From: an uncultured Candidatus Saccharibacteria bacterium
GTDB lineage: Bacteria > Patescibacteriota > Minisyncoccia > Phycocordibacterales > UBA918
NCBI GenBank assembly: GCA_964611205.1
Contig: CAZSZB010000003.1
Coordinates: 23,764-87,763, forward strand
DNA length: 64,000 bases
Reading direction: 5' to 3'
In this document: one piece after another, positions 12,179 through 54,142 of the stretch
How positions within the stretch are numbered: the first letter of the stretch is position 1
Layout: each line of letters starts with the position of its first letter
Made by a program: the position numbers and the translations under genes
The notes under the pieces: generated by a model
The model's database searches: none
What the model saw: only the letters and a program-made list of their open reading frames with translations
Told to the model about the DNA's origin: nothing

Positions 12179-12180
12179 AA

Positions 12181-12208
12181 CACTTCAGTTAACTGAAGTG
12201 TTTTATTT
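12181..12208 (+). terminator. hairpin cacttcagttaactgaagtg plus T-run
   Basis: Lies immediately after the dnaA stop. Confidence 0.5.
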
Positions 12209-12349
12209 AATATCTACAGCTGTGTATAAAGCTGTAGATAAGTAATGGAAATTCAAAAGTTCCTCTGTTAGTAAAGCTAGTGTAGAATGAGGGACAACTG
12301 TGAATGCTTTGGGGATTAGAAAGAAGTTATACCCACTTTTTTAGAAACT

Positions 12350-12470
12350 CTCAGCTATACACAAACTTATCCGAGTTATTACCCACTTCTATTAACAGTT
12401 TCCACAAAAATAACCACTAAAATAAAACATATACTAAGCCATAGATTTGAGATTTCCACAGATCCACAGA
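12350..12470. promoter_or_regulatory. second DnaA-box-like cluster / AT-rich region between dnaA and dnaN
   Basis: cTATACACA, TTTCCACAA, TTTCCACAG and gATCCACAG variants lie within an AT-rich stretch, giving a bipartite-origin-like layout. Confidence 0.35.
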
Positions 12471-12510
12471 CCTAATAATAAGGAGTAAAATAGAAGAATA
12501 AAAAATAATT

Positions 12511-13605: not shown

Positions 13606-13627
13606 GTTCTAAATACTTTATTATCTT

Positions 13628-13915
13628 ATGGCTCGCGGAGAAGGAATTAAAAAATTATCAGATTTATTTAGTAAGTATAAAAATACTTTAATTGCTCCCC
13701 AAGGATCAGTCATTAATACTTTTTGTGAAGTAGTTTATGAAACTTTAGATATATCCTTAAATAAAACACAAATTAAATATAATGTTCATAATAAAACTAT
13801 TATTTTAAATACACCTAGTGTCCTAAAGTCAGAAATAAAGTTGCACCAAAAAGATATATTAAATCACTTGAAAGGGAGGTTAGGAGTTGATAACGCACCA
13901 AAAGACATTCTTTAA
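13628..13915 (+). CDS. DUF721 / DciA-like small protein
   Basis: 95 aa immediately after dnaN. The C-terminal SEIKLHQKDILNHLKGRLG pattern is typical of DUF721. Confidence 0.4.
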   Translation: MARGEGIKKLSDLFSKYKNTLIAPQGSVINTFCEVVYETLDISLNKTQIKYNVHNKTIILNTPSVLKSEIKLHQKDILNHLKGRLGVDNAPKDIL

Positions 13916-13929
13916 ATAATTATGAAATT

Positions 13930-13961
13930 AAAAAACTCTGGAGTATTCTCCAGAGTTTTTT
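13930..13961. terminator. bidirectional hairpin aaaaaactctggag..ctccagagtttttt
   Basis: Lies between the convergent DUF721 and PBP genes. Confidence 0.5.
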
Positions 13962-13969
13962 AATTTAAT

Positions 13970-35308: not shown

Positions 35309-36652
35309 TTGAAATTAGTTATGACCAATCACAACCACACATTAGAAATCCAATACGTCGCAGTCGGTGACCTCAAGGAGAACGAATACAACCCGAAGAA
35401 GTTCTCAGCGGAGGCTTTGGACGGCATCAGAGAAAGCGTTACCCGTTTCGGGTTCGCAGATCCATTGGTAGTTAACAGCAACGAAGAGCGGAAAAACATT
35501 CTCATCGGAGGACATGCACGCCTCAAGATCGCCAAGGAGCTCGGCTTCGAGACCGTACCAGTCGTCTTCGTTAATCTGAGTGAAGACAAGGAAAAGGAAC
35601 TCAACCTCCGTCTCCACAGGAACCAAGGAGCGTTCGACTTGGAACTGCTCGCAAAGTTCGACGAGACGCTTCTTGCGGACATCGGATTCAACTCGGAGGA
35701 TCTCGATTCGATCTTCAACATGGACCCGACACCCGAGCACTTCGACCTCAAGAAGGAACTTGAGAAGTTGAATATCAAGGACGTGAAGGTAAAGCACGGA
35801 GACCGATACGAGATCGACGGCTCGATCCTCATGTGCGGAGACAGCACCATCGAGGAAGACATGCTCAAGCTCATGCAGGGAGCAAAAGCCGACATGGTGA
35901 TGACCGATCCTCCTTACATTCTCGACTACCTCAAGGGTAAGACGAAGAACAAGGACGGGATCACGGAAGGCTTCGGTGCGAAGAAGAACCGCGTCTATCT
36001 CGGCACCACTTCCTTGCCCGACAACTTCACCGACCTCTGGATGAACGGCGTGTCCAAGGTTCAGAAGGAGGACTTCTCGATCGTCATCTTCGAGCATCCG
36101 AAGAATCTCCGCACCATCTGGAACGCACTTGAGAAGCACTGGAAGTATCGCAACACCATCACATGGCACGTGCCAAACCGCATGCAGGGATTCGCTGGGA
36201 AGTACAAGCTTTTCAACAAGCAGGACATCGCACTTGTAGGAAGCACCGACCGAGTGATCGTTAATCTCGAGCCAGAGGATGAGCTGTTCCAGAACGAGTA
36301 CGAGAATGCCATTTATGCCACGAGCGGAAGACCGCATTGGGAAAGCTACGGCAAAGGAAAGAAGAACTGCCCGACGGACTTCATCGAGCACATCGCCGCA
36401 GACAAGAAGTCCTCTGGTCAGGACATCATATTTGGCACGAAGCCGATAGAGCTTCTCATCCCGTACATCAAGGTACTCACGAAGCGTGACGACTTGGTGC
36501 TCGAGCCGTTCGGAGGATCGGGATCAACGCTCATCGCATCGCTGAAGATCGGACGCAAGTGCCGCATCATGGAGAAGCAGCCGATCTATGCGGAGGTCAT
36601 TATCAAACGCTGGGAGAAAGCGACCGGCAAGAAGGCGGTGAAGATAGACTAG
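35309..36652 (+). CDS. ParB-like nuclease domain fused to N4/N6 DNA methyltransferase (beta-class)
   Basis: N-terminal ParB/Srx motif (ILIGGHARLKIAKELG). Motif IV VMTDPPY comes before motif I LEPFGGSGST. Confidence 0.8.
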   Translation: MKLVMTNHNHTLEIQYVAVGDLKENEYNPKKFSAEALDGIRESVTRFGFADPLVVNSNEERKNILIGGHARLKIAKELGFETVPVVFVNLSEDKEKELNLRLHRNQGAFDLELLAKFDETLLADIGFNSEDLDSIFNMDPTPEHFDLKKELEKLNIKDVKVKHGDRYEIDGSILMCGDSTIEEDMLKLMQGAKADMVMTDPPYILDYLKGKTKNKDGITEGFGAKKNRVYLGTTSLPDNFTDLWMNGVSKVQKEDFSIVIFEHPKNLRTIWNALEKHWKYRNTITWHVPNRMQGFAGKYKLFNKQDIALVGSTDRVIVNLEPEDELFQNEYENAIYATSGRPHWESYGKGKKNCPTDFIEHIAADKKSSGQDIIFGTKPIELLIPYIKVLTKRDDLVLEPFGGSGSTLIASLKIGRKCRIMEKQPIYAEVIIKRWEKATGKKAVKID

Positions 36653-36653
36653 T

Positions 36654-37229
36654 ATGGCAAAGCAGAAAGAAGCGGTCGCTACCGCACAGCTGAAGCACAA
36701 GCTCGTACAGCACCTACGGGACATCCCGATCCCGACATATGCGTGCCAGCGGGTCGGCGTTCCCAAAGCCACCTACTACAAGTGGCGGAAGACAGACCAG
36801 ATATTCCGTGAAGCGAGCGACGAGGCGATCATCACGGGAAAGCTCACACTTAATGATGTTGCTAAGTCCCAGCTCGTGAAGCTCATCAAGGAGGGAGACT
36901 ATCGCTCGATCAACTTCTGGCTGAAGCACAACGACGAGGACTTCGGATCGAAGCTCAAGCTTGAGATCGAGGACAGGACGAGAAAGTACGACCCCGAAGA
37001 ACTCAAACTCATGGCGACAGCGATGCATAATGCAGGATTGGTCGGCGTTACACTCGCTCACCAAAAGATGGCGAAGGTGTTTCAGGGATTGCAGGAAAAG
37101 GAAGAAGAGCGAGCCAACGAGAAGAACGAATACGACGAGGATGAAGAACCTGTCGTTCAGGAAAAACAGAAGCGAAAAGGCGGAGTGAAGATTGCAGAGT
37201 TTATGAAGAAGAGGAAGTCTGAGGAATAA
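36654..37229 (+). CDS. HTH DNA-binding protein, phage terminase small subunit-like
   Basis: N-terminal HTH (ACQRVGVPKATYYKWRK), and charged helices downstream. It is translationally coupled to the ParB-MTase. Confidence 0.4.
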   Translation: MAKQKEAVATAQLKHKLVQHLRDIPIPTYACQRVGVPKATYYKWRKTDQIFREASDEAIITGKLTLNDVAKSQLVKLIKEGDYRSINFWLKHNDEDFGSKLKLEIEDRTRKYDPEELKLMATAMHNAGLVGVTLAHQKMAKVFQGLQEKEEERANEKNEYDEDEEPVVQEKQKRKGGVKIAEFMKKRKSEE

Positions 37230-37659
37230 GTCGCCTCAGCACCTCTCCCGTGAGGATGCGGTGCTTCTTGAAGGCGTTGCACCGCTTGCATGCAAGCGTC
37301 AGGTTTCTCGGGTGGTTGGAGCCGAAGCTTTGTGGTTCGACTTTCACACCCGACACGCCTTTCATCTTACGAAGCTCCTTGTTCAGGACATTCGATGACA
37401 GCGGAATGATGTGGTCGGGTTCGAAGATTCCATCGTTGGTGCACTCAGGGTGAATGCTTAACTGGCATTCGCCTTTGTGCTTTTCGATGAGTTCATGCAA
37501 TACCTTCTTGCTGGTCTTGTCGAATTGCCACCGCTTGATTGCAGGATGCTGAAAATCAAAGAGATCGGAATATTCTTTGTTGAAATACTCTAGGTCTCCG
37601 TCTGCAAGCAGGTGTACGAAAAAATCCTGATCCTCAGGATTTTCAAACTGCATTCGCAA
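37201..37659 (-). CDS. HNH endonuclease
   Basis: A CxxC ... H-N-H core (EPDHIIPLS..NHPRNLTLACKRCNAFKKHR). Confidence 0.8.
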   Translation of the reverse strand: MRMQFENPEDQDFFVHLLADGDLEYFNKEYSDLFDFQHPAIKRWQFDKTSKKVLHELIEKHKGECQLSIHPECTNDGIFEPDHIIPLSSNVLNKELRKMKGVSGVKVEPQSFGSNHPRNLTLACKRCNAFKKHRILTGEVLRRLIPQTSSSS

Positions 37660-38329: not shown

Positions 38330-39397
38330 ATGGCAGTATCCGCTCAAAAAGTAAGCAAGTATGTCGATTCCATTTCCAAGAGCGGTCTTAGCATCTATGA
38401 CCCTATTGAAGTCGGAGATCCAAATCTTTGGATACCTTCAGGAGAACTGGAGGTTATTTTGAATGAGGCTTTAAAAGGTCTCTCCCTTACAGGTCTGCCC
38501 CTAAGAACACGATCAAAAGTTGTGAAGCAGAAAGTATGCTCTGCTTTGGGCTATCCTGTGCCAAATAGTTTTGAGAAAACACAGCCACGTTTCCCAGGAC
38601 AGTGCTTCGATACTTATATTCAGAAATCAAACAACTTGCAGATTTGGAACGAAGAACTTTCATCAACCCGACGATACGTAACGATCAAAGTAACCGACGA
38701 AGACGTGGTTGAAGTTGTACGTGTCGTAACTGGAGACACTCTTGCTGTACTTGATACAACAGGCACCCTCACTCAGAAATACCAAGCTCGACTTACAGTC
38801 GGTGATAATGTGTCAGAACTTGTATCTGCGGAGGATACTGACCGAATCGTTGCGATAATCGAATCTGCAAACGGTGATCAAAAGCTTGGTGATCCCACAG
38901 ATCATGTATCAGCTGAAAACATTCTTCCTATCGAAGATGTATTTGAAAAACTTAAGACAATAATCGGAAAGTCTTTTGCTGACGCTGGTTCTGATCAAGA
39001 AAGGAATCGAGGTGGACTACTCCACAAACTAGTGTGTCATGCATTGGGTTATGAAATACATCGAGACAACGGACAGTTTCCTGATGTACCGAATCAATTA
39101 CTTGAAGTAAAGCTTCAAACTTCTCCAACTATTGATCTTGGCTTGGTTACACCCGACAGTAAGGACGCATTGGATACGCCTAAAATCAACGGGAAGCAGA
39201 TACGTCACTGCGACGTTCGCTATGCAATCTTTTATGCCAACATCGAGAACGGACAAATTAATGTCACCAACCTTTTTCTATCAACAGGAAAAGATTTCTT
39301 TAGTCGTTTCCCTCGCTTTGAAGGAAAGGTACTTAATAAGAAAATTCAGATACCCCTTCCGTCAGATTTTTTCACCTATAAGCCGAAGGCTGAATAG
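38330..39397 (+). CDS. putative type II restriction endonuclease (PD-(D/E)xK-like)
   Basis: Convergent and overlapping by 22 bp with the N6-adenine MTase gene. It has a candidate catalytic HRDNGQFPDVPNQLLEVKLQT segment (D..EVK). Confidence 0.45.
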   Translation: MAVSAQKVSKYVDSISKSGLSIYDPIEVGDPNLWIPSGELEVILNEALKGLSLTGLPLRTRSKVVKQKVCSALGYPVPNSFEKTQPRFPGQCFDTYIQKSNNLQIWNEELSSTRRYVTIKVTDEDVVEVVRVVTGDTLAVLDTTGTLTQKYQARLTVGDNVSELVSAEDTDRIVAIIESANGDQKLGDPTDHVSAENILPIEDVFEKLKTIIGKSFADAGSDQERNRGGLLHKLVCHALGYEIHRDNGQFPDVPNQLLEVKLQTSPTIDLGLVTPDSKDALDTPKINGKQIRHCDVRYAIFYANIENGQINVTNLFLSTGKDFFSRFPRFEGKVLNKKIQIPLPSDFFTYKPKAE

Positions 39398-41070
39398 ACA
39401 AGTTTGTTTAGCTTCTCCTCCTGAGAATCAAATTCAGCATCTACAGGCAACTCGTAGATTGATTTAGTTAAGTTGATGATCTCTTTTGCTATCTTTGATT
39501 TTGGATCAGGCAATGGAAACTTCTCAACGTATTGAGTAATAAAGCGTCTTCGTCCCGAGTAGAGTTTATTGTTGAAACTGTGGTCGTAGAACTCCTCGAC
39601 AAACTTTGAGTTTGCAATTGCCAAAGCGAGCCACAGCAATTCGGAATTATCTTCTTCTGAAGTTAACCAGTAGCAGTCTCCATTCACCACACCGCCTGTT
39701 TGATCCATCCAAAAGATTGGTTGTTCAGAAATATCTCTGAAGACTAACTTGGGCTTCTCCCAAGTCTTTGGATTATGAGGAACCCAGATCTCGTACCAGT
39801 TACGTCCTGAATCAATCACGTAACTTCTCGATGAGAGCTGATCTTTGTGTTCTTCAAGATACCTTTTTACGTTGGGATACTGATCAAGATCAATGGGCTT
39901 CTTTTTGTTGCCGATTTCCTCATGTGTGTAAACAACATGCTTCTTTGCTGAATCTGTTTTGTATCTTCTTGCGACGTGATGAGTAATCAGTGGCTTTAGA
40001 GTTTCAGGTAGGTTTCCATTAAATTTAGAAATGTCGGATACGATAAAAACATTGTCAGCAGTCGTTTTGATACCAACTTTTACCTTGCCAATATCCCCAA
40101 ATAAAAGTTGAGTCTTTTCTTTAACTTTCTTCAACCACAGGTCTGCTTTGTCATGAGCAAGCCTCCATGTGTCGCCGATCTTATTGCCAATATCAAGCTT
40201 GCCGTGCAGTACTTTAAAATGTTCCGATTCCTCTCCTTCGAGTGATTGAAAGACTTGTTGTGGATCAATCTTTGTATTCTTTCCCGAAAGATATATTGAT
40301 GTGAATCTAGGGTCAGCATCCTTTGATGTCTCTTTTTGCAAAAGCAGAACAGCTGGAAGCACTGCCGCTTCAAACAAGCGTGTATCTCCTAAATCCCATA
40401 CATGTAGAACACTAAAATCATTTAGGAGATTCTTTCGAACAGCTTCGCCTGATTTAGTGGTAAGAAAGCGATTGGAAACAATGATACCTACTACACCTTC
40501 TGGCTTAAGAAGTTTCTCAATTCCTTTTAGGAAAGCGTGATACAGATCAACTCGACCTGAGAGATTAAAATCTTCCGCAAGCTTTTGAGCCTTTTCAGCA
40601 CCCATGACTTGAGTTCTGACATAAGGCGGATTCGCAATAACAAGATCAAAGAGTGGAACATCTGTTTTTGAAAACAAAGAACCTCCATAAGTTTCAGAGA
40701 CCCATTCTAAGAAATCCTGAGTTTTAATATCAGCCTTAACTTCAGGGAAATCCTTCTTGATTAGATCCAGAGAAGCATCAACTGCATCTTGATTAATATC
40801 GAAACCGAATACTTCGATTTTATTGAATCCGCGCGAGTAGGCTATCTGTATAAGATTACGCAGAAGCTCCCCGTCACCAACAGCAGGATCAATTACTTTT
40901 AGTGTTTTGGTTTTCTTTAAATTCTTTTTCTCAACTTGATCAAAGATTTGAGATGCCACAAAGCCAGCCAAAGAAGTTGGGGTGTAATGAGCCCCTGTAT
41001 TCTTTCTTAATCCAGCATCGAGTTGTGCATCTAAAGTTGGCATTTGTAAACCTATTTTAACATTTTTCAA
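39376..41070 (-). CDS. N6-adenine DNA methyltransferase, gamma-class (Eco57I/TaqI-like) with C-terminal target-recognition half
   Basis: A TGAHYTP segment, motif I VIDPAVGDGELL and motif IV VIANPPY. 564 aa. Confidence 0.85.
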   Translation of the reverse strand: MKNVKIGLQMPTLDAQLDAGLRKNTGAHYTPTSLAGFVASQIFDQVEKKNLKKTKTLKVIDPAVGDGELLRNLIQIAYSRGFNKIEVFGFDINQDAVDASLDLIKKDFPEVKADIKTQDFLEWVSETYGGSLFSKTDVPLFDLVIANPPYVRTQVMGAEKAQKLAEDFNLSGRVDLYHAFLKGIEKLLKPEGVVGIIVSNRFLTTKSGEAVRKNLLNDFSVLHVWDLGDTRLFEAAVLPAVLLLQKETSKDADPRFTSIYLSGKNTKIDPQQVFQSLEGEESEHFKVLHGKLDIGNKIGDTWRLAHDKADLWLKKVKEKTQLLFGDIGKVKVGIKTTADNVFIVSDISKFNGNLPETLKPLITHHVARRYKTDSAKKHVVYTHEEIGNKKKPIDLDQYPNVKRYLEEHKDQLSSRSYVIDSGRNWYEIWVPHNPKTWEKPKLVFRDISEQPIFWMDQTGGVVNGDCYWLTSEEDNSELLWLALAIANSKFVEEFYDHSFNNKLYSGRRRFITQYVEKFPLPDPKSKIAKEIINLTKSIYELPVDAEFDSQEEKLNKLVYSAFGL

Positions 41071-41111: not shown

Positions 41112-41507
41112 TTGGTTACCAGATTGACCCTTTGCAGACCTCTGGACTTATTTGCAGTTCAGCGTCATTCCTTGGGTGTGGATGAAGATATCGAGGCAAT
41201 TATTGATGCGAGTAAGCATTTCAAATACCACGAGGAGCGTGGGATGACCCTCTTTAATCGCGTCTCTCATCTACCCGAATCAAAGCGACACATGAAGATG
41301 GCAATTAAGGAACGCATACTCTTCTTGGCAGGTGCTTATATATCTCTTGCGTCATTCATTGATGATGACCTCGTGGATTTCTTAGAGAACGCTGACAATG
41401 AATCAGATAAAGAAAAAATAAAGAGAATTTATAGCGATGTAATCAAACAGATGGATACTCTACGTAAGGAGATGGAAGAATTCAAAATCATAGACTTACC
41501 AACCTAA
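41112..41507 (+). CDS. hypothetical protein upstream of the recombinase (true start probably internal)
   Basis: ORF with a charged helical C-terminus. Confidence 0.3.
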   Translation: MVTRLTLCRPLDLFAVQRHSLGVDEDIEAIIDASKHFKYHEERGMTLFNRVSHLPESKRHMKMAIKERILFLAGAYISLASFIDDDLVDFLENADNESDKEKIKRIYSDVIKQMDTLRKEMEEFKIIDLPT

Positions 41508-41541: not shown

Positions 41542-42882
41542 TTGCGTCATTCATTGGGTTGTATGAATAACGCAATATCAATGCCGTACGGGACAACGGT
41601 ACAAGAGCAAGTCCCTGTAAAGGTGAAGTACTGCCTTTATGCGAGAAAGTCGACAGAATCGGAGGAGCGACAAGTGCTGTCCATAGATAGCCAGATCAAG
41701 GAGATGCTCCAGCTCGCGGATCGAGAATGTTTAGAGATTGTGGAGATGAAGCGAGAGTCACACTCTGCAAAAGAGACAGGTCAGCGACCAGTCTTCAATG
41801 AAATAATCGAGGAGATACGAGAAGGAAAATACAACGGTATCCTGACATGGGCACCAGACCGTATTTCAAGAAACGCAGGTGACCTTGGAAGGATTGTAGA
41901 CCTGATGGATTCGGGCAAGCTTGAGGAAATACGAACTTTTGGTCAGAAGTTCGGCAACAATCCAAACGAGAAGTTTCTCCTGATGATTCTGGGGTCACAA
42001 GCAAAGCTTGAGAACGACAATCGAGGAATCAACGTGAAGCGAGGTCTGCGAACGAGAGCGGAGATGGGGCTATGGTCAGGCATGCCTCCTCTCGGGTACG
42101 TGACGCAGGGACTAATGGAAAAGAAATGTCAGGTAGCGGTAGATCCGCTACGAGCACCAACAGTGAAGAAGATGTTTGAGAAAGTTGCATACGAACAATG
42201 GTCTGGGCGAAAGGTATACAACTGGCTGAGGTTTGAGCTGAACTTCTACACCAGAGGAAACAAACCACTCACTCTCGGAGGTGTGTATCGCATATTAGAA
42301 AACCCTTTCTACTATGGAGTGTTCGAGAGACCAAAGAAGAGCGGAAACTGGTATCAAGGAAAGCACACGCCACTCATCACGCAGGAACTGTTCGAGAAAG
42401 CAAAGGCACAGCTTAAGCGTGACCAGATAGTGCGAGAGACGAAGGAGTTCGCATTCACTAAGCTCTTCACCTGCGGGTACTGCGGAAGCGGGATATCCGC
42501 CGAAGAGAAATGGAAACAGCTCAAGGATGGCGGCGTGAACAGATACATCTACTACTCCTGTGCCAGATCAAGAGACCGCAACTGCAAGAACATGTACATA
42601 CGAGAAGAAGATTTGATACTCGAACTACTGAAAATACTCGACAAAGTGAACATCAACGAGCTTGGCATGCGAAAGAAACTGGAGGATGAGATTGCGAGGT
42701 TCAATATATTCCAAAGGTCGGTACTCGGCGCCAAAGAAAAGATAAAGACGGATGCAGAGACAGATATCAGGAACTATGCGAAGTACATCCTAAAAGAAGG
42801 GTCTACTACTGAAAAACGAGAGCTATTGGCTAACCTGAGATCACGAATTGAATACAAAGATAAGAACCTAAGGCTCGTCTAG
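41542..42882 (+). CDS. large serine recombinase (resolvase catalytic domain + recombinase domain + zinc ribbon)
   Basis: YARKSTESEERQ catalytic Ser motif, a recombinase domain, and CGYCGS..YYSC zinc-ribbon cysteines. Confidence 0.85.
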   Translation: MRHSLGCMNNAISMPYGTTVQEQVPVKVKYCLYARKSTESEERQVLSIDSQIKEMLQLADRECLEIVEMKRESHSAKETGQRPVFNEIIEEIREGKYNGILTWAPDRISRNAGDLGRIVDLMDSGKLEEIRTFGQKFGNNPNEKFLLMILGSQAKLENDNRGINVKRGLRTRAEMGLWSGMPPLGYVTQGLMEKKCQVAVDPLRAPTVKKMFEKVAYEQWSGRKVYNWLRFELNFYTRGNKPLTLGGVYRILENPFYYGVFERPKKSGNWYQGKHTPLITQELFEKAKAQLKRDQIVRETKEFAFTKLFTCGYCGSGISAEEKWKQLKDGGVNRYIYYSCARSRDRNCKNMYIREEDLILELLKILDKVNINELGMRKKLEDEIARFNIFQRSVLGAKEKIKTDAETDIRNYAKYILKEGSTTEKRELLANLRSRIEYKDKNLRLV

Positions 42883-42962
42883 ACAGAATAGATGGGTTGT
42901 TGCAAAAGTGTTAAAATAGAGGCGTAACATGAAATCCAAATTTCACCTTACGAGAACATTGC

Positions 42963-45900
42963 ATGAGCCCAAATACCGCTCCACAACCAAACACGCTCAT
43001 TCTCCCAATCTTAGAATTGGGGCCTATTAGGCATGATCTCGGACAGATAAGGCATGTTTTGGATCTTGGCGGGAGCAAAGAGATAGTATCAACAGAAGAT
43101 TTCAATACTTCGCCTAGAGTTGTAGAAAAGCTACACGTACTCTCTGACGGACAAAGAGTATTGGTAACAAAGAAAAAGAAACTCCAGCTACCTGTCGATG
43201 TGGACGGAGTGCTTCATCGTAACGAAGAAGGAGAACTAAAGTGGGTTGCTCATAGAAAACTGGAAGCGATAGAACAGGATATTGCTCGAGACGGGATAGA
43301 AAGTGTCGCATCTGAAATAGCTGAAAGCTGGTCTGGGAAATTTAACTTTCGTGCAGAAGAGCGAGATGCTTCAGGAAACATCACTAAGGCAGGACTGAGA
43401 CCTCCACAAATCGGTGGACTTCATGCGATTGGTGCTCACTGGAGTCTCTACCAGCAACCTGCGACGGTTGTAATGCCCACTGGTACAGGAAAGACAGAAA
43501 CGATGTTGGCAACTCTCGTGGCATATTCACCAGGTAGCTTGCTTGTAGTGGTTCCCTCAAAAGTACTTCGGGATCAAACCGCAAGAAAATTTCTAACGTT
43601 AGGATTGCTTCGTTCTCTCGGTAATATTTCTCCAGAAACAAAAAATCCAATTGTTGGAGTAATCAAAAAGAGACCTCAGTCAGAACAAGATCTGGATATT
43701 TTTGATAAATGCAATGTCGTTATTGCAACCATGAGTGCCATGGGTGGCGAAGCATCCGATGACATATCCCTTCCTGTTGCCGACCATGCCAAAACACTGA
43801 TCGTCGACGAAGCACATCACATTGGAGCAAATGGATGGAGTGCTTTTCGAGAAAAATTTAAGGAAAACAAGGTTTTACAATTTACAGCAACCCCCTATCG
43901 AAGAGACGGAAAGCTTGTCGATGGAAAGGTTATTTATGAGTATCCTCTACACTCAGCCCAGAAAGACGGATATTTCAAAAATATCAACTTCGAGCCCGTA
44001 TATGAGATTGATCAAGAAGATGCGGATGAAGCAATAGCCACAAAGGCAGTAGAAGTGCTCAGAAGCGATATTGAGTCTGGAATGGACCATCTCATGATGG
44101 CAAGATGTGTGAGCATTGGTCGGGCAAGGACAATACATGCTATTTACAGCAGGATCGCTCCTGACCTGAACCCTGTTCTAATACATTCAGAGGCTGACGA
44201 AGCCGATGCTTCTATTGAGCTCATAAAATCTCGTGGAAGTCGTATTGCAGTTTGCGTAAATATGCTCGGAGAAGGTTTTGATTTGCCTCAACTTAAAATT
44301 GCAGCTGTCCACGATGCTCATAAAAGCCTTGCTATCCTTTTGCAATTTACGGGTAGATTCACTCGAAGTTCAGGAGAAGCAATTGGTGATGCGACTGTCG
44401 TGGCAAATATCGCAGATCAGGATGTCTCCTCATCGCTTGAACGTCTTTACAGTGAGGATGCGGATTGGAATCAATTGTTAAGTGAATTTAGCTCCGAAGC
44501 AGCAAAAGCCCATTCAGAGCTTATTGCCTTTTTGAATTCATCCGAAAGGCTTGATGACCCAGAAGATGAAGAGAAGATCGAAATATCCCACCATCTATTT
44601 CGCCCTACCTTCAGCACACTAATGTACGAAGCAGATTCTTTCACTCCTAAAAAATTCATCGAAGGAATTCCCAAAGGAACGACTGTGCACAATGTCTGGA
44701 TTCACGAAGAATCCAAAACCCTCTATTTTGTAACAAGACTAGAACCATCCATTCGTTGGACAAGATCACGCAAACTAAAGGATAGGACATGGGATTTGCA
44801 CGTTTTTCATTATGACGAAGCGCGCCACATGTTGTTCGTGTCCTCGAGTGACAAGTCCTCAGCGCATGAAAAAATTGCCAAGGCCATTGGTGCCACACGA
44901 CTCATTTCTGGTGACGTTATTTTCCGAGCACTAGGACGAATCAATAGACTTATCTTTCAGAACGTGGGAGTAACCAAGCATGGCCGTCGAAACCTGAGGT
45001 ATGCAATGTATACAGGTTCTGATGTTGCTACAGCGTTGAGTGTGTCTGAACGAGCTGGTTCAGTTAAATCAAACCTAAGTGGTACTGGTTGGGAAAATGG
45101 TGAACCTGTCACAATCGGATGCTCCTACAAAGGACGTGTGTGGGCTAGAGATCCTGGATCAATACCTGAACTCGTAAAATGGTGTGAAGCTGTTGGCGAT
45201 AAAATTAAAGATGAAGGAATAGACACGGCAGATATTATTGCCAACGTTCTTATCCCCGAAGAAGTAACAGCATTGCCAGATAAACAGGTACTCAGCATTG
45301 AGTGGCCTCTGGAAATTATCAGACAGTCGGAAGAAAGAGTGGTTATCAAGAAAGGAGCTGTTGAGAGATCAATTTCAATGTTTGATCTTCAATTCGTTAA
45401 AACTGATCTGGTAACCAGTCAGGTTGAATTTAATCTTGTCACAGATCCTGAGGAGGTTTGGGCAAAATTAGTTCTGACAGTGGGTGGCGATGACGGATTC
45501 AAAGTCACAAAAAGCACAAGAGAAGCTGTAACAATTCGTGTTGGGAATTTGGAACTTCCAATCGAGGAGTATTTTTCAAATTACCCTCCGATGATTCGCT
45601 TCATAGATATTTCTGAGCTTGACGGCAACTTACTCATTAAGCCGCAAAACACTCAAGACCTTGTGTTTCCTGAAGAAAGTTTTGAGGTCTGGGACTGGGA
45701 AGGAGTCGACATGCAAAAGGAGTCTATTTGGAAAGGTGGTAATGAACGTCAGGACTCAATCCAATGGAAAGCGGCTCAGCAGTTTATTGCTGGAAACTTC
45801 GATGTGGTCTTTGATGATGACAGTGCGGGAGAAGCTGCTGATCTTGTCTGTTTTAAGGAAGAAGATGATCATATACGGTTAGCTTTGGTGCATTGTAAAT

Positions 45901-46256
45901 TCACAAAAGGTACAACCGCAGGTGAGCGAGTAAGTGACGTTGTGGAAGTTTCATCTCAAGCGGTTCGATCAGCAAAATGGAAATGGAAATTTAAAGATTT
46001 GTGCCGACACGTTCTTGAAAGAGAGAAGAGGCTTTCTGGTGGTCGCACAACTAGATTCCTCAAAGGAATTGGATCAGATATGAATAGGTTCGTGAAGTTG
46101 AGCAGATTCAAGGAAATTAGACCAGAGATCATTATCGTTCAACCTGGCTTATCAAAGGCTAATCACACGGCAGATCAGACAGCCGTATTAGCAGCAGCTC
46201 ATAGCTATCTCAAGGAGACAGTCGGAGTTGATCTTGATGTTATTTGTAGCGAATAA
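42963..46256 (+). CDS. 1097-aa SF2 (DEAH / ResIII-type) helicase with roughly 600-aa C-terminal extension carrying a possible degenerate nuclease-like motif
   Basis: Q-like motif LRPPQ, Walker A MPTGTGKTET, DEAH box LIVDEAHH and motif VI QFTGRFTR. The C-terminal segment FDVVFDDD..ADLVCFK..ALVHCKFT is PD-(D/E)xK-like but not canonical. Confidence 0.8.
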   Translation: MSPNTAPQPNTLILPILELGPIRHDLGQIRHVLDLGGSKEIVSTEDFNTSPRVVEKLHVLSDGQRVLVTKKKKLQLPVDVDGVLHRNEEGELKWVAHRKLEAIEQDIARDGIESVASEIAESWSGKFNFRAEERDASGNITKAGLRPPQIGGLHAIGAHWSLYQQPATVVMPTGTGKTETMLATLVAYSPGSLLVVVPSKVLRDQTARKFLTLGLLRSLGNISPETKNPIVGVIKKRPQSEQDLDIFDKCNVVIATMSAMGGEASDDISLPVADHAKTLIVDEAHHIGANGWSAFREKFKENKVLQFTATPYRRDGKLVDGKVIYEYPLHSAQKDGYFKNINFEPVYEIDQEDADEAIATKAVEVLRSDIESGMDHLMMARCVSIGRARTIHAIYSRIAPDLNPVLIHSEADEADASIELIKSRGSRIAVCVNMLGEGFDLPQLKIAAVHDAHKSLAILLQFTGRFTRSSGEAIGDATVVANIADQDVSSSLERLYSEDADWNQLLSEFSSEAAKAHSELIAFLNSSERLDDPEDEEKIEISHHLFRPTFSTLMYEADSFTPKKFIEGIPKGTTVHNVWIHEESKTLYFVTRLEPSIRWTRSRKLKDRTWDLHVFHYDEARHMLFVSSSDKSSAHEKIAKAIGATRLISGDVIFRALGRINRLIFQNVGVTKHGRRNLRYAMYTGSDVATALSVSERAGSVKSNLSGTGWENGEPVTIGCSYKGRVWARDPGSIPELVKWCEAVGDKIKDEGIDTADIIANVLIPEEVTALPDKQVLSIEWPLEIIRQSEERVVIKKGAVERSISMFDLQFVKTDLVTSQVEFNLVTDPEEVWAKLVLTVGGDDGFKVTKSTREAVTIRVGNLELPIEEYFSNYPPMIRFIDISELDGNLLIKPQNTQDLVFPEESFEVWDWEGVDMQKESIWKGGNERQDSIQWKAAQQFIAGNFDVVFDDDSAGEAADLVCFKEEDDHIRLALVHCKFTKGTTAGERVSDVVEVSSQAVRSAKWKWKFKDLCRHVLEREKRLSGGRTTRFLKGIGSDMNRFVKLSRFKEIRPEIIIVQPGLSKANHTADQTAVLAAAHSYLKETVGVDLDVICSE

Positions 46257-46295
46257 CCCGAGCCCCATTCAAGGGTACTCGGGTCACTCCGATAC

Positions 46296-46385
46296 TTAGT
46301 TCTCTTGGCGGAGAGAGAGGGATTCGAACCCTCGGTACGCGTAAACGTACAACGGTTTTCAAGACCGCCGCCTTCAACCACTCAG
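46296..46385 (-). tRNA. tRNA-Ser (anticodon TGA), long variable arm, CCA encoded
   Basis: Hand-folded: GGAGAGA acceptor, GCTGAGTGGTTGAAGGC D-arm, anticodon loop CUUGAAA, long extra arm, and a GGTTCGAATCC T-loop. Confidence 0.9.
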
Positions 46386-46541
46386 CCATCTCTCCAGATA
46401 TTAAATTGTTGCGGTAAACGATTGTTATCAGTTCAACCAGCTTACCACCGCATGCTTAATCCTTGATAAGGATTGTGACCAGGATATTACCAGAAAAAAA
46501 GCTTTTTTCCAACTATATTTTCATCGTGTTATGATTATCGA

Positions 46542-49651: not shown

Positions 49652-50173
49652 ATGAAAAACCAACGAACAAAAATAATATTCATAATCGCTTTGGTTTATT
49701 TATCTCTATCCCTGTTTGTTTTATGGTGGATGTTTTCTAGTGTTGAAAAAACTGGTCAGGAGATGAGTGCCCAAGCTATCATTTTGGCTGACAATATGGC
49801 TCAAGAGAGAGAGGTGGGGGATTTAAGTAGATTGGTCGACGCTAGTTTTGTGGTCCGGAGTCAATTGGAGGAGTTCGTTTTAGCTGAAGCAGAAACAGTT
49901 AATTTCCTAGCTGATATAGAGCTAATAGGGAATGAGCAAGGTGTGAAGTTAGAGACCTCATCCCTTGAGGTTATAGATAGTGGAGGTGAATTTCCTATCT
50001 TGTTAGTAGATTTTTCGATTATTGGATACGAAAAAGATGCTTTAAAAATGATTAAGATTCTTGAAAATATTCCTTACCATAGTGAGTTGAGAAGTATAAC
50101 CTTTGACCGTAATCCGGATAATGAATCGTTGGTTTTAATTTCTACTACCTTAGCTGTTAGTATGAATAGATAA
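49652..50173 (+). CDS. PilO-like bitopic membrane protein
   Basis: N-terminal TM plus a coiled and beta-rich domain, translationally coupled. Confidence 0.45.
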   Translation: MKNQRTKIIFIIALVYLSLSLFVLWWMFSSVEKTGQEMSAQAIILADNMAQEREVGDLSRLVDASFVVRSQLEEFVLAEAETVNFLADIELIGNEQGVKLETSSLEVIDSGGEFPILLVDFSIIGYEKDALKMIKILENIPYHSELRSITFDRNPDNESLVLISTTLAVSMNR

Positions 50174-50180
50174 AAGTATC

Positions 50181-50582
50181 ATGGATAAATCCGATATTAT
50201 AAAAATTGCAAAACATGTATTTAAGAAAGGTGGTGGTTCATCAGATCATTCCTTTTTCAACCCAAGCCGAGACTGGCTAATTGGAATTTTTATTTTTATT
50301 ATCATCCTTTTAGTAGGTAGTTATATCAGTGGCTTAAACTATGCTCGATATCATAATGTTGAAGTTACCGAGCTCGGAACAAAAACAAATCTTCCTAAAT
50401 ACAATGAAGTGAGGGTAAACGAAGCAATTTTAAAATATAAAAGTATCGATGCTAAATTCAAAGGATTGATAAGTGAGACACCAAATGGAACTCGGAGGTT
50501 AGAATTAATTGATAAAGACAACGTTGAACCCGAGCCTGACATTAGAAGAGACACTCCACCAGAAAGTTACTCGGCTGAGTAG
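50181..50582 (+). CDS. small membrane-anchored protein (possible PilP-like)
   Basis: One TM, and operon position. Confidence 0.3.
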   Translation: MDKSDIIKIAKHVFKKGGGSSDHSFFNPSRDWLIGIFIFIIILLVGSYISGLNYARYHNVEVTELGTKTNLPKYNEVRVNEAILKYKSIDAKFKGLISETPNGTRRLELIDKDNVEPEPDIRRDTPPESYSAE

Positions 50583-50672
50583 TTAATTTTTATATTTAGT
50601 TAAGTTTAATAATTAAAACAAATACATTACACTTTGTTTCTATAAAATATAAAATTTAGTTATAATGCTCGA

Positions 50673-51236
50673 ATGAAAAATGATTTACTTACTATAAGTG
50701 ATCGCTATAAACAGGCAGCAGATATTTTGATTGAAGAGTCTGGTTTAGTTAATGTTCTTAAAAAATATGGCTATATTGAATACGAAGGTGCTTACTCTGG
50801 TAATGTAATGATGCATGGTGATATTGATATAAAGGTAATTCGGGATTCTGAGTATACTCAAGATGATATATTTATTATCCTAAGAGACATTTATGATACT
50901 TGTGATAAATACTTCAGAAGTTTGTTTATCAAAGCAGACTGGGATGATCCAAGAATTGGACAACAATTTCCATACGGTAGATATATAGGGCTTAAAACAT
51001 ACTTTAATGATGAGCGTTGGAAGTTTGATATCTGGTTCATTTCTGAAAAAGAAAATGCTAAAGAAAAAACAAAACTAGATATTAGTAAGGTTAGTCTCAC
51101 TGAAGAGCAACGCATTAAAATTTTAGAGTTTAAACAATTCAGGAAAGATCAAAATATTAAAATTTCGGGACAAGAAATATACGAAGCAGTTTTAGAAAAG
51201 AATTTTATAAGTCCTGAATTGTTTTTTAACAAATAA
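50673..51236 (+). CDS. nucleotidyltransferase-fold protein (pol-beta superfamily GS..DxD motif) in about 30% GC islet
   Basis: YEGAYSGNVMMHGDIDIKV matches G-S-x(n)-D-h-D. Confidence 0.4.
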   Translation: MKNDLLTISDRYKQAADILIEESGLVNVLKKYGYIEYEGAYSGNVMMHGDIDIKVIRDSEYTQDDIFIILRDIYDTCDKYFRSLFIKADWDDPRIGQQFPYGRYIGLKTYFNDERWKFDIWFISEKENAKEKTKLDISKVSLTEEQRIKILEFKQFRKDQNIKISGQEIYEAVLEKNFISPELFFNK

Positions 51237-51238
51237 GT

Positions 51239-51673
51239 ATGAATTTAATAAACAGATGGCATGACATTCTCAATATGCCCAAACTTGACGAAGTTTGGCA
51301 TAGACAAGATATGTCAGATGAACTAGCAGAATATGAAGAAGCTTGTGGTTTTTTAAATAATTGGAGTGAATTATCAGATGTTGTCTATACTTATAGTCGT
51401 GCAAGGTGGTCTGGACACACCACAATATATTTTCCACTCTCTAAAACAAAATTATTTTTTGGTGTTATATATATGATACCTAAGTACACATTACGTTGGC
51501 GATTTTTCCGTAAAATAGGTCATCAGTTTGATAAAAATCTTAATATTTCAGAAGTTCGTAACCCTAAAAAAATTGAAAAACTGAAAAAGATTGCTAGTAA
51601 GTACGAACTTGATCCTGAAATATTTGTAATAAAAGCTGAAAAAATGCGTCGAAGGACAATTTTATTAAAATAG
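51239..51673 (+). CDS. hypothetical protein, partner of NTase-fold gene (possible R-x6-H HEPN-like motif)
   Basis: RFFRKIGH segment, translationally coupled, and equally AT-rich. Confidence 0.3.
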   Translation: MNLINRWHDILNMPKLDEVWHRQDMSDELAEYEEACGFLNNWSELSDVVYTYSRARWSGHTTIYFPLSKTKLFFGVIYMIPKYTLRWRFFRKIGHQFDKNLNISEVRNPKKIEKLKKIASKYELDPEIFVIKAEKMRRRTILLK

Positions 51674-51712
51674 TTTATTTACTCCTTAGCTTTTAATTAT
51701 GTAAACAGTTCT

Positions 51713-54142
51713 CTAAAGATCCCTCGTTATTTTCAAGTTTACAGAATTTTGTTTTTGTTCTAAAAAACGACCGATGCGTCTTTTTGAAAATTCTGTAGTA
51801 ACAAAATACAGTGCAGTAAGTGAGAGAATTAGACCTAGGTCAGAAAAAGATGGTCTGACAAACCCAAAGTAATAAGCGGTTAATGGGATGAACGGAATAA
51901 GGAGAGTAGTCACAAATGCTCCTAGTGATAGCCATATAATACTCTTAGCTGGCGGGCCTGCTTTTTCAATAGGTAACATAGAACGAATGGAAAAAATCAG
52001 TACTAGTTCAGTTAGAATGCTTGCTATGAACCAGTTAGTTTGCAAAATACTGGCTCCTTCTTTGTAGAATAAACCGAACCATAAAAAGTCGAATACTGTA
52101 CTCACTAAGCCAACTGTAATAAAAATAATATAAAGAGTTTTAAAATCGTATTTCTGTGGATGTTGGATTTCGTTTTTATTTACTCGGTCAAAGGCAATAG
52201 CCATTAAAGGAAAGTCAGATAGTAGATTCAGTAATAATAATTGTTTCGGCAGCATTGGTAAAAAAGTAATGAAGAGGGAACTAATTGCCACTGCATAGAA
52301 ATTACCAAAGTTGGCAATCAAAGTAGTACGGATATATTTCAAAGTGTTGGCGTGGGTTTCTCTACCAATCTGAATACCGTCAATAATGACTCGCAAATCT
52401 GATTTTAATAAAATAATATCCGCTGTCTCTCGTGATACATCTGAAGCTGACTTGACCACTAGAGCTACGTCAGCTGTTTTTAAGGCTGCTGCATCATTAA
52501 TTCCTTCTCCTAAAAATCCGACGGTATACTGCTCTTTAAGTAGTTGAATCAAAGTCACTTTTTGTTCTGGGGTTGTCCGGGCGAAAACACGAATAGTGGA
52601 TAGTCGCTCAAATTGTTCAGTAGTTGATAGAGCAAAGAAGGCATTAGCCTCGATTGCTTCTTCAGGTTTGGTCACCAAATTCACTTCACGTCCAATGGCT
52701 TCAGCTACCCGCAGAGAATCGCCAGTAATGATAGTGACAGCCACATTCAAGTCGCGGGCTTGGTTGAGAGTTTTTATAGTGGTACTTTTTAAGGCATCAG
52801 AGAAGGAGATAAAGCCACCAAATGAAGCACCCGAACCAGTATCGTAACTTACACCTAAAATACGCCGACCAAGTTTCTCTTCTGCCTCTAGCCACTCTTC
52901 CACTAGCGCCTGATCGATTAGTCCTTGTTCAATAAAATATTCCGGAGCCCCACGACGAATATGTATTTGGTTTCCGCGAGCATCTTTTACGATGGCACCA
53001 TTGCTGCGTAAAGCAGGTTCGAAAGCCTCCTCGGTAACCAACTGATATTCTTCCAAATGAGACTTTTGTTCGGCACTGAGTGCACTTAAAGTAGCTCGGT
53101 CAAATGGTTCAGGATTGGCTTTGTGAGTACTGTTAACAGTTAGTGCAGAGAGAATGAGTGGGTGCCACCGACTATCAGGTATAAGATAGTCATTTTGAAA
53201 TTCCAGTTCGTTTTTTGTAATGGTACCAGTTTTATCGGTGCATAAAAGTTCGATTGAACCAAGATCTTGGATAGAGGATAGGCGTTTTACAATCACGCCT
53301 TTCTTTACTAGCTTTAACGCACCATTTGAGAGGGAGAAAGCCATCACTAAAGGTAGAGCTTCGGGGATGACTGATATAGCCAAGGCGATAGCAAAGATAA
53401 GTAGGTGGGGGATATCAGCTGCACTGCCATCAATTAAAATATTAGCTAGAACAACAAATAATAACGTCACTAAAGTTACTCGCAGTATAAAGGTACTGAT
53501 GCGATCGATACTCTTTACATTATGGCTCTTACTCTCGATTGCGGAAGTCTTTTTAAGAATTTGAGCTAGTCTAGTATTTTTTCCAGTAGCTATTACTTCA
53601 GCGAAGGCTAAGCCTTTCACTACAACAATTCCTTGGAGAATTAAAGATTCATCGGTTGCGTCATCACTGCTGGCGTGTTTAGTAACAGGAATACTTTCAC
53701 CGGTGAAAGTTGTTTCGTCCACCTGAAAGCCAGTAGTAAAACGTATAACACAATCGGCTGGCACTATATCTCCCGACTCGAGTTTTATGATATCTCCAGG
53801 CACTAGTTCTGAAACTGGTACCTCTTTATCTGTGTTATTTCGTCTAACAGTAATAGACCGCGCTAGGTATGATTGTAGTTGACTGGCAGTGGCGTTTGAT
53901 TTGTACTCTTGAAAAAAACTGAGTCCAATACTTAAGACAACAAACACGAGAATGAAACTAGCGTCAAATGGCTCTTCTAGCATATAGGTAATTGCTGAGG
54001 CCAATATTAAGAGAATGACAAAGATACTTTTGAATTGCCGAGCAAGCAACCGTAGAGTTTGGTACTTAGGTTGAGGGATTTCATTTAACCCAAATTCAGC
54101 TTGCCGCTGAGTAATTTCTTTTGTGGTTAGTCCAGGGAACAT
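51713..54142 (-). CDS. cation-transporting P-type ATPase
   Basis: CTDKTGTITKN phosphorylation motif, a GEGINDAAALKTADVAL hinge, a TGES motif and 10 TM segments. Confidence 0.9.
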   Translation of the reverse strand: MFPGLTTKEITQRQAEFGLNEIPQPKYQTLRLLARQFKSIFVILLILASAITYMLEEPFDASFILVFVVLSIGLSFFQEYKSNATASQLQSYLARSITVRRNNTDKEVPVSELVPGDIIKLESGDIVPADCVIRFTTGFQVDETTFTGESIPVTKHASSDDATDESLILQGIVVVKGLAFAEVIATGKNTRLAQILKKTSAIESKSHNVKSIDRISTFILRVTLVTLLFVVLANILIDGSAADIPHLLIFAIALAISVIPEALPLVMAFSLSNGALKLVKKGVIVKRLSSIQDLGSIELLCTDKTGTITKNELEFQNDYLIPDSRWHPLILSALTVNSTHKANPEPFDRATLSALSAEQKSHLEEYQLVTEEAFEPALRSNGAIVKDARGNQIHIRRGAPEYFIEQGLIDQALVEEWLEAEEKLGRRILGVSYDTGSGASFGGFISFSDALKSTTIKTLNQARDLNVAVTIITGDSLRVAEAIGREVNLVTKPEEAIEANAFFALSTTEQFERLSTIRVFARTTPEQKVTLIQLLKEQYTVGFLGEGINDAAALKTADVALVVKSASDVSRETADIILLKSDLRVIIDGIQIGRETHANTLKYIRTTLIANFGNFYAVAISSLFITFLPMLPKQLLLLNLLSDFPLMAIAFDRVNKNEIQHPQKYDFKTLYIIFITVGLVSTVFDFLWFGLFYKEGASILQTNWFIASILTELVLIFSIRSMLPIEKAGPPAKSIIWLSLGAFVTTLLIPFIPLTAYYFGFVRPSFSDLGLILSLTALYFVTTEFSKRRIGRFLEQKQNSVNLKITRDL

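What the first reader, a model, noticed from the sequence alone, without database searches (positions are those of the whole stretch)
42963..46256. Stand-alone 1097-aa SF2 helicase with long uncharacterised C-terminal domain next to the integrase: candidate single-protein defence or element-replication enzyme
The protein has a Q-like motif, Walker A (PTGTGKTET), a DEAH box (VDEAHH) and motif VI (QFTGRFTR) typical of ResIII/type-III-Res-like helicases. There is no Mod-type methyltransferase partner. About 600 residues follow the helicase core and include a segment (FDVVFDDD..AADLVCFK..LALVHCKFT) that resembles a variant PD-(D/E)xK/RecB-type nuclease motif in which the usual acidic residue is replaced by His. 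Both the N-terminal 150 aa and the C-terminal 350 aa lack motifs I can assign. Helicase-nuclease single-gene systems are a recurring anti-phage theme. From sequence alone I cannot place this protein in Hachiman, DISARM, Nhi/Hna or type III Res.
Basis: partly seen in the sequence, partly recalled or inferred. Interest (0 to 1): 0.7.

Follow-up and report, generated by a model that had tools for sequence, protein, structure and literature searches.

The report
Unnamed stand-alone helicase-nuclease, likely defence gene
The gene encodes a real 1097-residue protein that joins a DNA motor to a DNA-cutting domain; it belongs to a large, widespread family that no database names, and it rides on mobile elements among known anti-virus genes, so it is probably a one-gene immunity enzyme, though nobody has tested that.

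The parts
42963..46256 (+). Complete ORF of the 1097-aa helicase-nuclease (stop codon included)
   Evidence: Full-length homologues of 57-97% identity. The exact sequence is present in public collections.
42963..43337 (+). N-terminal region, residues 1-125: confident all-beta domain (strands 11-97) plus two helices. Fastest-evolving part; absent from the ~996-aa enterobacterial form. Candidate recognition or regulatory domain.
   Evidence: AF2 pLDDT ~90. Lowest conservation in A3. No Pfam hit at E<=10. Klebsiella and E. coli copies align only from residue ~118.
43380..44462 (+). SF2 ATPase/helicase core, residues ~140-500: Q149, Walker A 172-178, DEAHH 282-286, TATP 308-311, QxxGRxxR 461-468
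   Evidence: Pfam ResIII 1e-23, DEAD 6.5e-13, Helicase_C 1.1e-4. Closest solved cores are RadD, Mfd and XPB. Motifs invariant in 54 divergent members.
44520..45752 (+). Middle region, residues 520-930: beta-rich alpha+beta domains with TBP-like fold resemblance, including a variable patch at ~800-875. No family assignment.
45753..46253 (+). C-terminal PD-(D/E)xK-fold nuclease domain, residues 931-1097: helix 933-943, strands 947-951, 961-966 and 970-978, helix 986-1007. Invariant Q934, D952, D953, E957, D960, H977, K979, Q999, R1020, Q1060.
41542..42882 (+). Context: large serine recombinase (the island's integrase), 80 bp upstream and co-directional
   Evidence: Pfam Resolvase, Recombinase, Zn_ribbon_recom. 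PHROG integrase 7e-59. The recombinase+helicase block is 72% DNA-identical to a Parcubacteria MAG.
46306..46395 (-). Context: tRNA-Ser (tga) 50 bp after the helicase stop; the presumed integration site and right edge of the island
   Evidence: ARAGORN. The Parcubacteria relative has a tRNA-Ser (gct) in the same position. GC falls back to host level after ~46.5 kb.
38330..41070 (.). Context: self-contained type II R-M in the same island. REase 38330-39397 (+), MTase 39376-41070 (-), convergent.
   Evidence: PADLOC REase_II 1.9e-151 and MTase_II 2.1e-193. Pfam Eco57I, N6_Mtase, TaqI_C.
35309..37659 (.). Context: ParB_N-N6_N4 MTase fusion (35309-36652, +), small-terminase-like HTH protein (36654-37229, +) and HNH endonuclease (37201-37659, -); a phage-derived remnant in the island

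Best explanation
The gene encodes a self-sufficient, single-polypeptide ATP-dependent DNA translocase/helicase fused to a metal-dependent PD-(D/E)xK-fold nuclease. It belongs to a large, horizontally transferred and so far unnamed family that is carried as cargo on integrative elements, plasmids and defence islands. Shown here: the domain order (N-terminal beta domain, SF2 motor of RadD/XPB/Mfd type, TBP-like middle domains, C-terminal nuclease fold); strict conservation of both catalytic motif sets; the absence of any conserved partner gene; and the link to mobile elements and defence islands. Inferred mechanism: the enzyme is kept inactive on host DNA. The fast-evolving N-terminal domain and the variable 800-875 patch recognise a feature of invading DNA or an invader protein, such as free ends or forks, a foreign base modification, or a phage factor. 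ATP hydrolysis then drives translocation, and the C-terminal nuclease (D960, H977-x-K979, with D952/D953/E957 supplying carboxylates) nicks or degrades the DNA, which stops phage or plasmid propagation. In this window it is the outermost cargo gene of a ~13-kb island integrated at tRNA-Ser by a serine recombinase. The island also carries a type II R-M system, so it is a small multi-layer defence island.
Confidence: 0.6

Rival explanations
1. It is a solitary or degenerate type III restriction Res subunit (or a type III-like enzyme whose Mod partner was missed). It would work by Mod-directed recognition, ATP-triggered sliding and cleavage.
For: Pfam ResIII is the best hit. It has the same order of motor then PD-(D/E)xK nuclease. 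EcoP15I Res is among the Foldseek core hits.
Against: No PF19778 RE_endonuc domain, which a canonical Res found next to a family member does carry (L096). No NCBIfam type III match. No Mod-type MTase is conserved nearby: the N6_N4_Mtase cluster occurs in 4 of 77 loci, beside a canonical-Res (PF19778) cluster that also occurs in 4 of 77. The only adjacent MTase in the window has its own type II REase.
Confidence: 0.05
2. It is a member of the Hna family: a single-protein, SSB-triggered 3'-5' ssDNA exonuclease that causes abortive infection.
Against: BLASTP against Hna SMa2245 (full-length match, E=0, to PDB 10UJ/9YKJ) finds nothing (E>=1.2). hhalign probability is 22% and confined to the P-loop. 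Hna matches PADLOC PDC-S28 and the window protein does not. Hna's motor is DinG/XPD-like, while this one is closest to RadD/XPB/Mfd. Lengths differ: 845 vs 1097 aa.
Confidence: 0.03
3. It serves the mobile element itself, for example as a replication, excision or transfer helicase-nuclease of the integrative element, and is not an immunity function.
For: It lies directly beside the integrase here and in several relatives. The recombinase+helicase block is conserved between two Parcubacteria-type genomes. One relative sits in a small element with Prim-Pol.
Against: 62% of loci have no integrase within 10 kb. It occurs with serine and with tyrosine recombinases, in either orientation, on plasmids with their own replicons, and IS-flanked with no element functions. 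No replication, relaxase or excision gene is conserved with it. It is almost absent from viral contigs: 3-4 full-length among 2.9 million. Its position at the extreme edge of elements is typical of cargo.
Confidence: 0.12
4. It is a housekeeping DNA-repair helicase-nuclease (RadD- or Hef-like fork processing).
For: The closest solved motor is RadD (5e-07; Foldseek 5e-16). There are weak NCBIfam RadD and Hef core hits.
Against: Scores are far below the family cut-offs (41.6 vs 720 bits for RadD). Similarity is limited to the motor (TMq <=0.25). The gene is present in only ~0.2% of E. coli genomes. Its distribution is patchy and horizontally transferred. It sits in a GC-atypical island.
Confidence: 0.05
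5. It is an ATP-dependent modification-dependent (type IV) restriction enzyme of the SauUSI kind. This is a specific sub-case of the defence reading, in which the variable domains read modified bases.
For: It stands alone without a cognate MTase. SauUSI's motor is among the core hits, and there is a weak PADLOC mREase_IV hit. The N-terminal domain and middle patch vary in sequence, as target-recognition domains do. It is often adjacent to other type IV enzymes such as GmrSD and Mrr.
Against: No PLD nuclease, DUF3427, SRA, EVE or YTH-type reader was detected. It shares islands with several MTases, which would have to be compatible. The N-terminal domain fold was not identified.
Confidence: 0.15

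Closest known systems
Hna (S. meliloti SMa2245; PADLOC PDC-S28; PDB 10UJ/9YKJ)
   Same: Single-gene unit. SF2 ATPase at the N-terminus with a PD-(D/E)xK-fold nuclease at the C-terminus. Broad, patchy distribution, including rhizobial plasmids.
   Different: No detectable sequence homology. Hna's motor is DinG/XPD-like and this one is RadD/XPB/Mfd-like. 845 vs 1097 aa. Hna has no ~400-aa TBP-like middle region, no N-terminal beta domain, and a canonical catalytic Lys motif (K729) instead of the HxK variant.
Type III restriction Res subunit (e.g. EcoP15I Res)
   Same: ResIII-type motor followed by a C-terminal PD-(D/E)xK nuclease; similar length.
   Different: No PF19778 endonuclease domain, no Mod partner, and extra N-terminal and middle domains.
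HmaA (Hma system; Snf2 helicase + NOV_C/DUF3883 nickase, PMC11232893)
   Same: Large SF2 ATPase with a C-terminal PD-(D/E)xK nuclease. HmaA can defend as a single gene. Located in defence islands.
   Different: No match to HmaA models or PF13020. The motor is not Snf2-type, apart from a weak PF18766 hit. No HmaB/HmaC neighbours.
Hachiman (HamA DUF1837 nuclease + HamB helicase)
   Different: Hachiman has two genes and this is one. No HamA/HamB or DUF1837 sequence match. The domain order is fused, helicase first.
SauUSI-type ATP-dependent type IV restriction enzymes
   Same: Stand-alone, with no MTase partner. SF2 motor plus nuclease plus extra recognition domains in one ~1000-aa chain. The motor is among the Foldseek hits.
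   Different: SauUSI has an N-terminal PLD nuclease and a C-terminal DUF3427 reader. Here the nuclease is a C-terminal PD-(D/E)xK and no known reader domain was found.
RadD / XPB / Mfd motor domains
   Same: Closest solved ATPase cores by sequence and by fold.
   Different: The resemblance covers only the two RecA lobes (TMq <=0.25). Those are housekeeping repair factors without this C-terminal half.

Membership tests
Hna | Sequence homology to S. meliloti Hna (SMa2245) / PADLOC PDC-S28 profile | tested here: not met
   BLASTP E>=1.2. hhalign probability 22%, P-loop only. Hna hits PDC-S28 with E=0 and the window protein has no PDC-S28 hit.
Hna | DinG/XPD-like SF2 motor with reduced Arch domain | tested here: not met
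   The nearest solved motors are RadD, XPB and Mfd. Hna structures are not among the sequence hits or the top 50 fold hits.
Hna | C-terminal PD-(D/E)xK nuclease; single-gene system | tested here: met
Hna | ATP-autoinhibited 3'-5' ssDNA exonuclease activated by phage SSB; abortive infection | not testable with these tools
   Needs biochemistry and infection assays (PMC13381803).
Type III R-M Res subunit | ResIII-type SF2 motor at the N-terminus | tested here: met
   PF04851 1e-23.
Type III R-M Res subunit | C-terminal type III endonuclease domain (PF19778 RE_endonuc) | tested here: not met
   No hit even at E<=10 on the isolated C-terminus. A canonical Res next to a family member does hit it at 6e-34.
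Type III R-M Res subunit | Adjacent Mod methyltransferase | tested here: not met
   No MTase is conserved in 77 loci. The window's nearby MTase pairs with a type II REase.
Hachiman | HamA (DUF1837) + HamB gene pair with matching profiles | tested here: not met
Hma (HmaA) | Snf2 helicase with C-terminal NOV_C (PF13020) nuclease; HmaB/HmaC partners | tested here: not met
   No HmaA or PF13020 hit. No conserved partners.
DdmDE | DdmD helicase-nuclease with an adjacent pAgo-like DdmE partner | tested here: not met
   No conserved neighbour of any kind. No DdmD hit in PADLOC or in PDB sequence searches. I could not confirm that a DdmD profile is in the PADLOC copy.
SauUSI-type type IV restriction | N-terminal PLD nuclease and C-terminal DUF3427 modified-base reader | tested here: not met
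   Neither domain was detected. Only the motor resembles SauUSI.
RadD (repair helicase) | NCBIfam NF053632 equivalog score >=720 bits | tested here: not met
   41.6 bits, motor only.
PD-(D/E)xK nuclease superfamily (C-terminal domain only) | [quoted passage not shown] | tested here: met
PD-(D/E)xK nuclease superfamily (C-terminal domain only) | Catalytic D ... (D/E)-x-K triad on strands 2 and 3 | tested here: inconclusive
   D960 at the start of strand 2 and K979 at the end of strand 3 are invariant, but the (D/E) position is an invariant His (H977). Invariant D952/D953/E957 could supply the missing carboxylate.

The most novel reading that the evidence does not exclude
This is the founding example of a new, widespread single-protein immune family: a RadD/XPB-type motor, an array of TBP-like domains, and an HxK-variant PD-(D/E)xK nuclease, with an optional fast-evolving N-terminal sensor domain. 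It would defend bacteria, including genome-reduced Patescibacteria, against phages or plasmids through a trigger and self-sparing mechanism unlike those of Hna, Hachiman or restriction-modification.
Probability: 0.45. Interest if true: 0.65.

Novelty: new variant of a known kind. Interest (0 to 1): 0.55.

Why it matters
Helicase-nuclease fusions are a recurring design in bacterial immunity (Hna, Nhi, HmaA, DdmD, SauUSI, type III Res), but each family senses infection differently. This family is large: 1403 clusters at 50% identity for the C-terminal half alone, in more than ten phyla, on Klebsiella and E. coli plasmids and chromosomes, and in Patescibacteria. Yet its C-terminal 580 residues match no Pfam or PDB sequence, and Pfam, NCBIfam, PADLOC and PHROGs match the protein only in its helicase core. 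If it is shown to defend, it would add a compact single-gene system with uncharacterised sensor domains. It would fill a gap in defence-system annotation tools, and it would give a tractable enterobacterial homologue (996 aa, next to retron Ec78) for mechanistic work. If it is not defensive, it is still a widespread mobile-element enzyme of unknown role.

Tried and rejected
(1) Hna membership. I fetched SMa2245 from pSymA and confirmed by a full-length match (E=0) that it is the solved Hna. BLASTP and hhalign then found no homology.

(2) The nearby MTase as a Mod partner. Rejected: it belongs to a complete type II R-M.

(3) Direct repeats of the tRNA-Ser end as att sites. No exact repeat of 12 bp or more was found, which is expected for a serine recombinase and so is uninformative.

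(4) Full-length fold search against the PDB. Only motor hits, TMq <=0.25.

(5) Foldseek of the C-terminal half. No hit at E<=1e-3. A PDB profile search with the C-terminal alignment gave 0 hits at E<=10.

(6) Pfam on four isolated fragments at E<=10. Nothing.

(7) PHROGs. Only the generic helicase core.

(8) Phage collections. Only 2 dubious 'phage' records and 3-4 IMG/VR contigs carry a full-length copy, so a phage replication helicase is rejected.

(9) Promoter and terminator scans. Not above shuffled background.

(10) Literature. No paper mentions WP_001549206 or WP_074091248. The Druantia DruE preprint, the HmaA paper and DefensePredictor were examined. A 1126-aa E. coli 'DEAD/DEAH helicase' flagged by DefensePredictor proved unrelated.

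Full report
OBSERVATION. The ORF at 42963-46256 (+) is real: ATG start, 1097 codons, no competing long ORF on either strand. Pfam finds ResIII (144-313, 1e-23), DEAD, a weak SWI2_SNF2 match and a weak Helicase_C (404-469, 1.1e-4, 22.8 bits against a 23.5-bit gathering score), and nothing outside residues ~140-500. Four isolated fragments (1-150, 481-760, 741-960, 931-1097) have no Pfam hit even at E<=10. PADLOC and NCBIfam match only the motor (best: PbeA 3e-14, dnd_restrict_1 2e-11, RadD 5e-11), far below the curated cut-offs. PHROGs matches only the generic phage helicase core.

THE FAMILY. The protein is not an orphan. A word-indexed search returned 5658 hits. [quoted passage not shown] An exhaustive HMMER search with only residues 520-1097 found 1403 clusters at 50% identity (971 at E<=1e-10), nearly always at the same position of ~1000-1100-aa proteins, so the architecture is fixed. 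In an alignment of 54 members sharing 30-55% identity with the query, the following are invariant:
- Q149
- Walker A P172-T173-G174-x-G176-K177-T178
- D282-E283-x-H285-H286
- A309-T310-P311, R313, D315
- Q461-x-x-G464-R465-x-x-R468
- in the C-terminus: Q934, D952, D953, E957, D960, H977, K979, Q999, R1020, Q1060

The motor and the C-terminal motif are the most conserved stretches. Residues 1-125 and ~800-875 are the most variable. Enterobacterial members (996 aa) align only from residue ~118, so they lack the N-terminal domain. All public names are generic.

STRUCTURE. An AlphaFold2 model of the full protein (40-sequence alignment, mean pLDDT 78) shows four parts:
- a confident all-beta N-terminal domain (strands 11-97, pLDDT ~90)
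- two RecA lobes
- beta-rich domains at 549-880
- a C-terminal unit with the order helix 933-943, strands 947-951, 961-966 and 970-978, helix 986-1007, strand 1051-1064, helix, strand

This places D960 at the start of the second strand and H977-x-K979 at the end of the third, which is the canonical position of PD...(D/E)xK. Foldseek of the whole model against the PDB found only helicase cores (RadD, Mfd, XPB, then SauUSI, LlaBIII, EcoP15I Res) with TMq <=0.25, so no solved structure shares the architecture.

CONTEXT IN THE WINDOW. GC content is 0.44-0.51 from ~32 to 46.5 kb against 0.38-0.40 on either side. The host ABC transporter ends at 33191. Downstream of the helicase come a tRNA-Ser (46306-46395, -) and then RuvX, a tRNA-binding protein and PilM/PilN. 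The island of ~13 kb carries these genes:
- a ParB-MTase fusion, a small-terminase-like protein and an HNH endonuclease
- a convergent type II REase/MTase pair (PADLOC 1.9e-151 and 2.1e-193)
- a 131-aa ORF with no family match
- a large serine recombinase (41542-42882)
- the helicase-nuclease as the last gene before the tRNA

No att-like repeat of 12 bp or more was found, as expected for serine recombinases.

CONTEXT ELSEWHERE. In a Parcubacteria MAG the recombinase+helicase block is conserved (72% DNA identity over 41622-46256) and again abuts a tRNA-Ser, but the upstream cargo differs: EcoRI-like MTase, GmrSD-HNH and AAA_13. Other members lie in these settings:
- next to Mrr and a YoeB toxin-antitoxin pair
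- next to a tyrosine integrase
- next to a serine recombinase, terminase and ParB-MTase in a Saccharibacteria genome
- between two serine recombinases
- in a recombinase/Prim-Pol element
- IS5-flanked on a Klebsiella IncFIB/HI1B plasmid, beside an AAA ATPase on a Caulobacter plasmid, and beside AbiH on a Rhizobium plasmid
- directly beside retron Ec78 RT-PtuA-PtuB in E. coli ECONIH5

The 80 best loci from one-genome-per-species contigs span Patescibacteria, Proteobacteria, Bacteroidota, Bacillota, Planctomycetota, Verrucomicrobiota, Acidobacteriota, Nitrospirota, Deinococcota and others. Identities reach 63% between phyla, which indicates horizontal transfer.

I clustered all ORFs within 5 kb of the gene in 77 of those loci. 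No neighbour family is present in more than 8 loci, and the top clusters are serine recombinase (8), HTH_3 (6) and tyrosine integrase (5). A Ser/Tyr recombinase lies within 10 kb in 29 of 77 loci and within 1 kb in 10; a tRNA abuts the gene in 5. A bulk PADLOC scan of 120 flanking proteins found unambiguous DrmA (7e-171), DrmD (E=0), ZacC (E=0), HmaA (9e-186), mad2 and type II MTases. The family is rare in E. coli (8-10 of 5426 complete genomes). It is nearly absent from phage genomes and viral contigs: 2 doubtful records, and 3-4 of 2.9 million contigs, each with the gene at or near a contig end.

WHAT IT IS NOT.
- Hna. I retrieved SMa2245 from pSymA (PMC12445080) and confirmed by a full-length match (E=0) that it is PDB 10UJ/9YKJ. 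BLASTP (E>=1.2) and hhalign (probability 22%, P-loop only) show no homology. Hna is PADLOC PDC-S28, which the window protein does not hit. Hna is also DinG/XPD-like and 845 aa (PMC13381803).
- Type III Res. It has no PF19778 and no Mod, whereas a canonical Res next to a family member has both.
- HmaA. It has no NOV_C/PF13020 and no HmaA profile hit (PMC11232893).
- Hachiman. It is a single gene with no HamA/HamB or DUF1837 match.
- RadD. It scores 41.6 bits against a cut-off of 720.
- A 1126-aa E. coli helicase flagged by DefensePredictor is unrelated.
- I found no paper that names this family. Subscription-only literature and newer DefenseFinder models could not be checked.

MECHANISM.
Shown: a fixed four-part architecture; purifying selection on both catalytic motif sets; faster evolution of the N-terminal domain and one middle patch; genetic autonomy; and residence on mobile elements and in defence islands.

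Inferred: this is a single-chain ATP-dependent translocase-nuclease that acts against invading DNA. Its motor relatives (RadD, XPB, Mfd, type I/III/ISP restriction motors) mostly track along or remodel duplex or forked DNA. I therefore favour loading on a DNA feature, ATP-driven movement, and cleavage by the C-terminal nuclease. The variable domains would provide recognition or autoinhibition. Without a methyltransferase partner, self DNA must be spared either by autoinhibition relieved by an infection cue, as in Hna (and, by my recollection, DdmD), or by dependence on foreign modification, as in SauUSI-type type IV enzymes. My evidence cannot separate these two.

Confidences: a helicase-nuclease enzyme, about 0.85; a defence or anti-mobile-element role, about 0.6. 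The rivals (an element-maintenance function, type III Res, Hna, a housekeeping repair enzyme) are listed in the rival explanations with their evidence.

VERDICT. The protein is a member of a large, uncharacterised family that is a new variant of the known helicase-nuclease defence theme. It is a good candidate for experimental testing, but its function has not been demonstrated. Interest 0.55.

Noticed in passing
window 38330-41070: A complete type II restriction-modification pair: REase 38330-39397 (+) and Eco57I/TaqI_C-type N6-adenine MTase 39376-41070 (-), convergent, with 22-bp overlapping 3' ends.
   Followed up: partly
window 35309-37659; also L011 15691-17064 and L014 18343-19312: A ParB_N-N6_N4 methyltransferase fusion followed by a small-terminase-like protein and an HNH endonuclease, which looks like a phage packaging-module remnant. 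The same ParB-MTase type lies within ~8 kb of the helicase family member in a Saccharibacteria genome and in another metagenomic contig.
   Followed up: partly
window 41622-46334 vs L001 6676-11442: The serine recombinase + helicase block is conserved at 72% DNA identity with a Parcubacteria MAG and abuts a tRNA-Ser in both, but the isoacceptors differ (tga here, gct there) and the upstream cargo is entirely different.
   Followed up: partly
L080 3532-14216 and 3-4 similar loci: In 4-5 of 77 family loci an AddB-like (PDDEXK_1) and an AddA-like (UvrD + PDDEXK_1) gene pair lies upstream of the helicase-nuclease. DUF6361 proteins (3 loci) and ~1055-aa DEAD helicases (5 loci) recur downstream. This may be a recurrent multi-gene island or system.
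   Followed up: no
window 41112-41507: A 131-aa ORF just upstream of the recombinase with no Pfam, PADLOC or PHROG match. By position it could be a recombination directionality factor or a regulator.
   Followed up: no
window 12000-14000 and 50000-52000: Two GC troughs (~0.31 against ~0.39 background). The second covers small ORFs with no family match downstream of PilM/PilN.
   Followed up: no
window as a whole: The closest relatives of the helicase and of the recombinase block are from Candidatus Parcubacteria and Saccharibacteria MAGs, so the window probably comes from a Patescibacteria (CPR) genome. It carries a stacked defence island despite a reduced genome.
   Followed up: no
L016 15720-18957 (E. 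coli ECONIH5): The enterobacterial homologue sits directly beside a retron Ec78 RT-PtuA-PtuB system in an IS-rich island that has replaced part of a fimbrial operon. This strain would be convenient for experiments.
   Followed up: no
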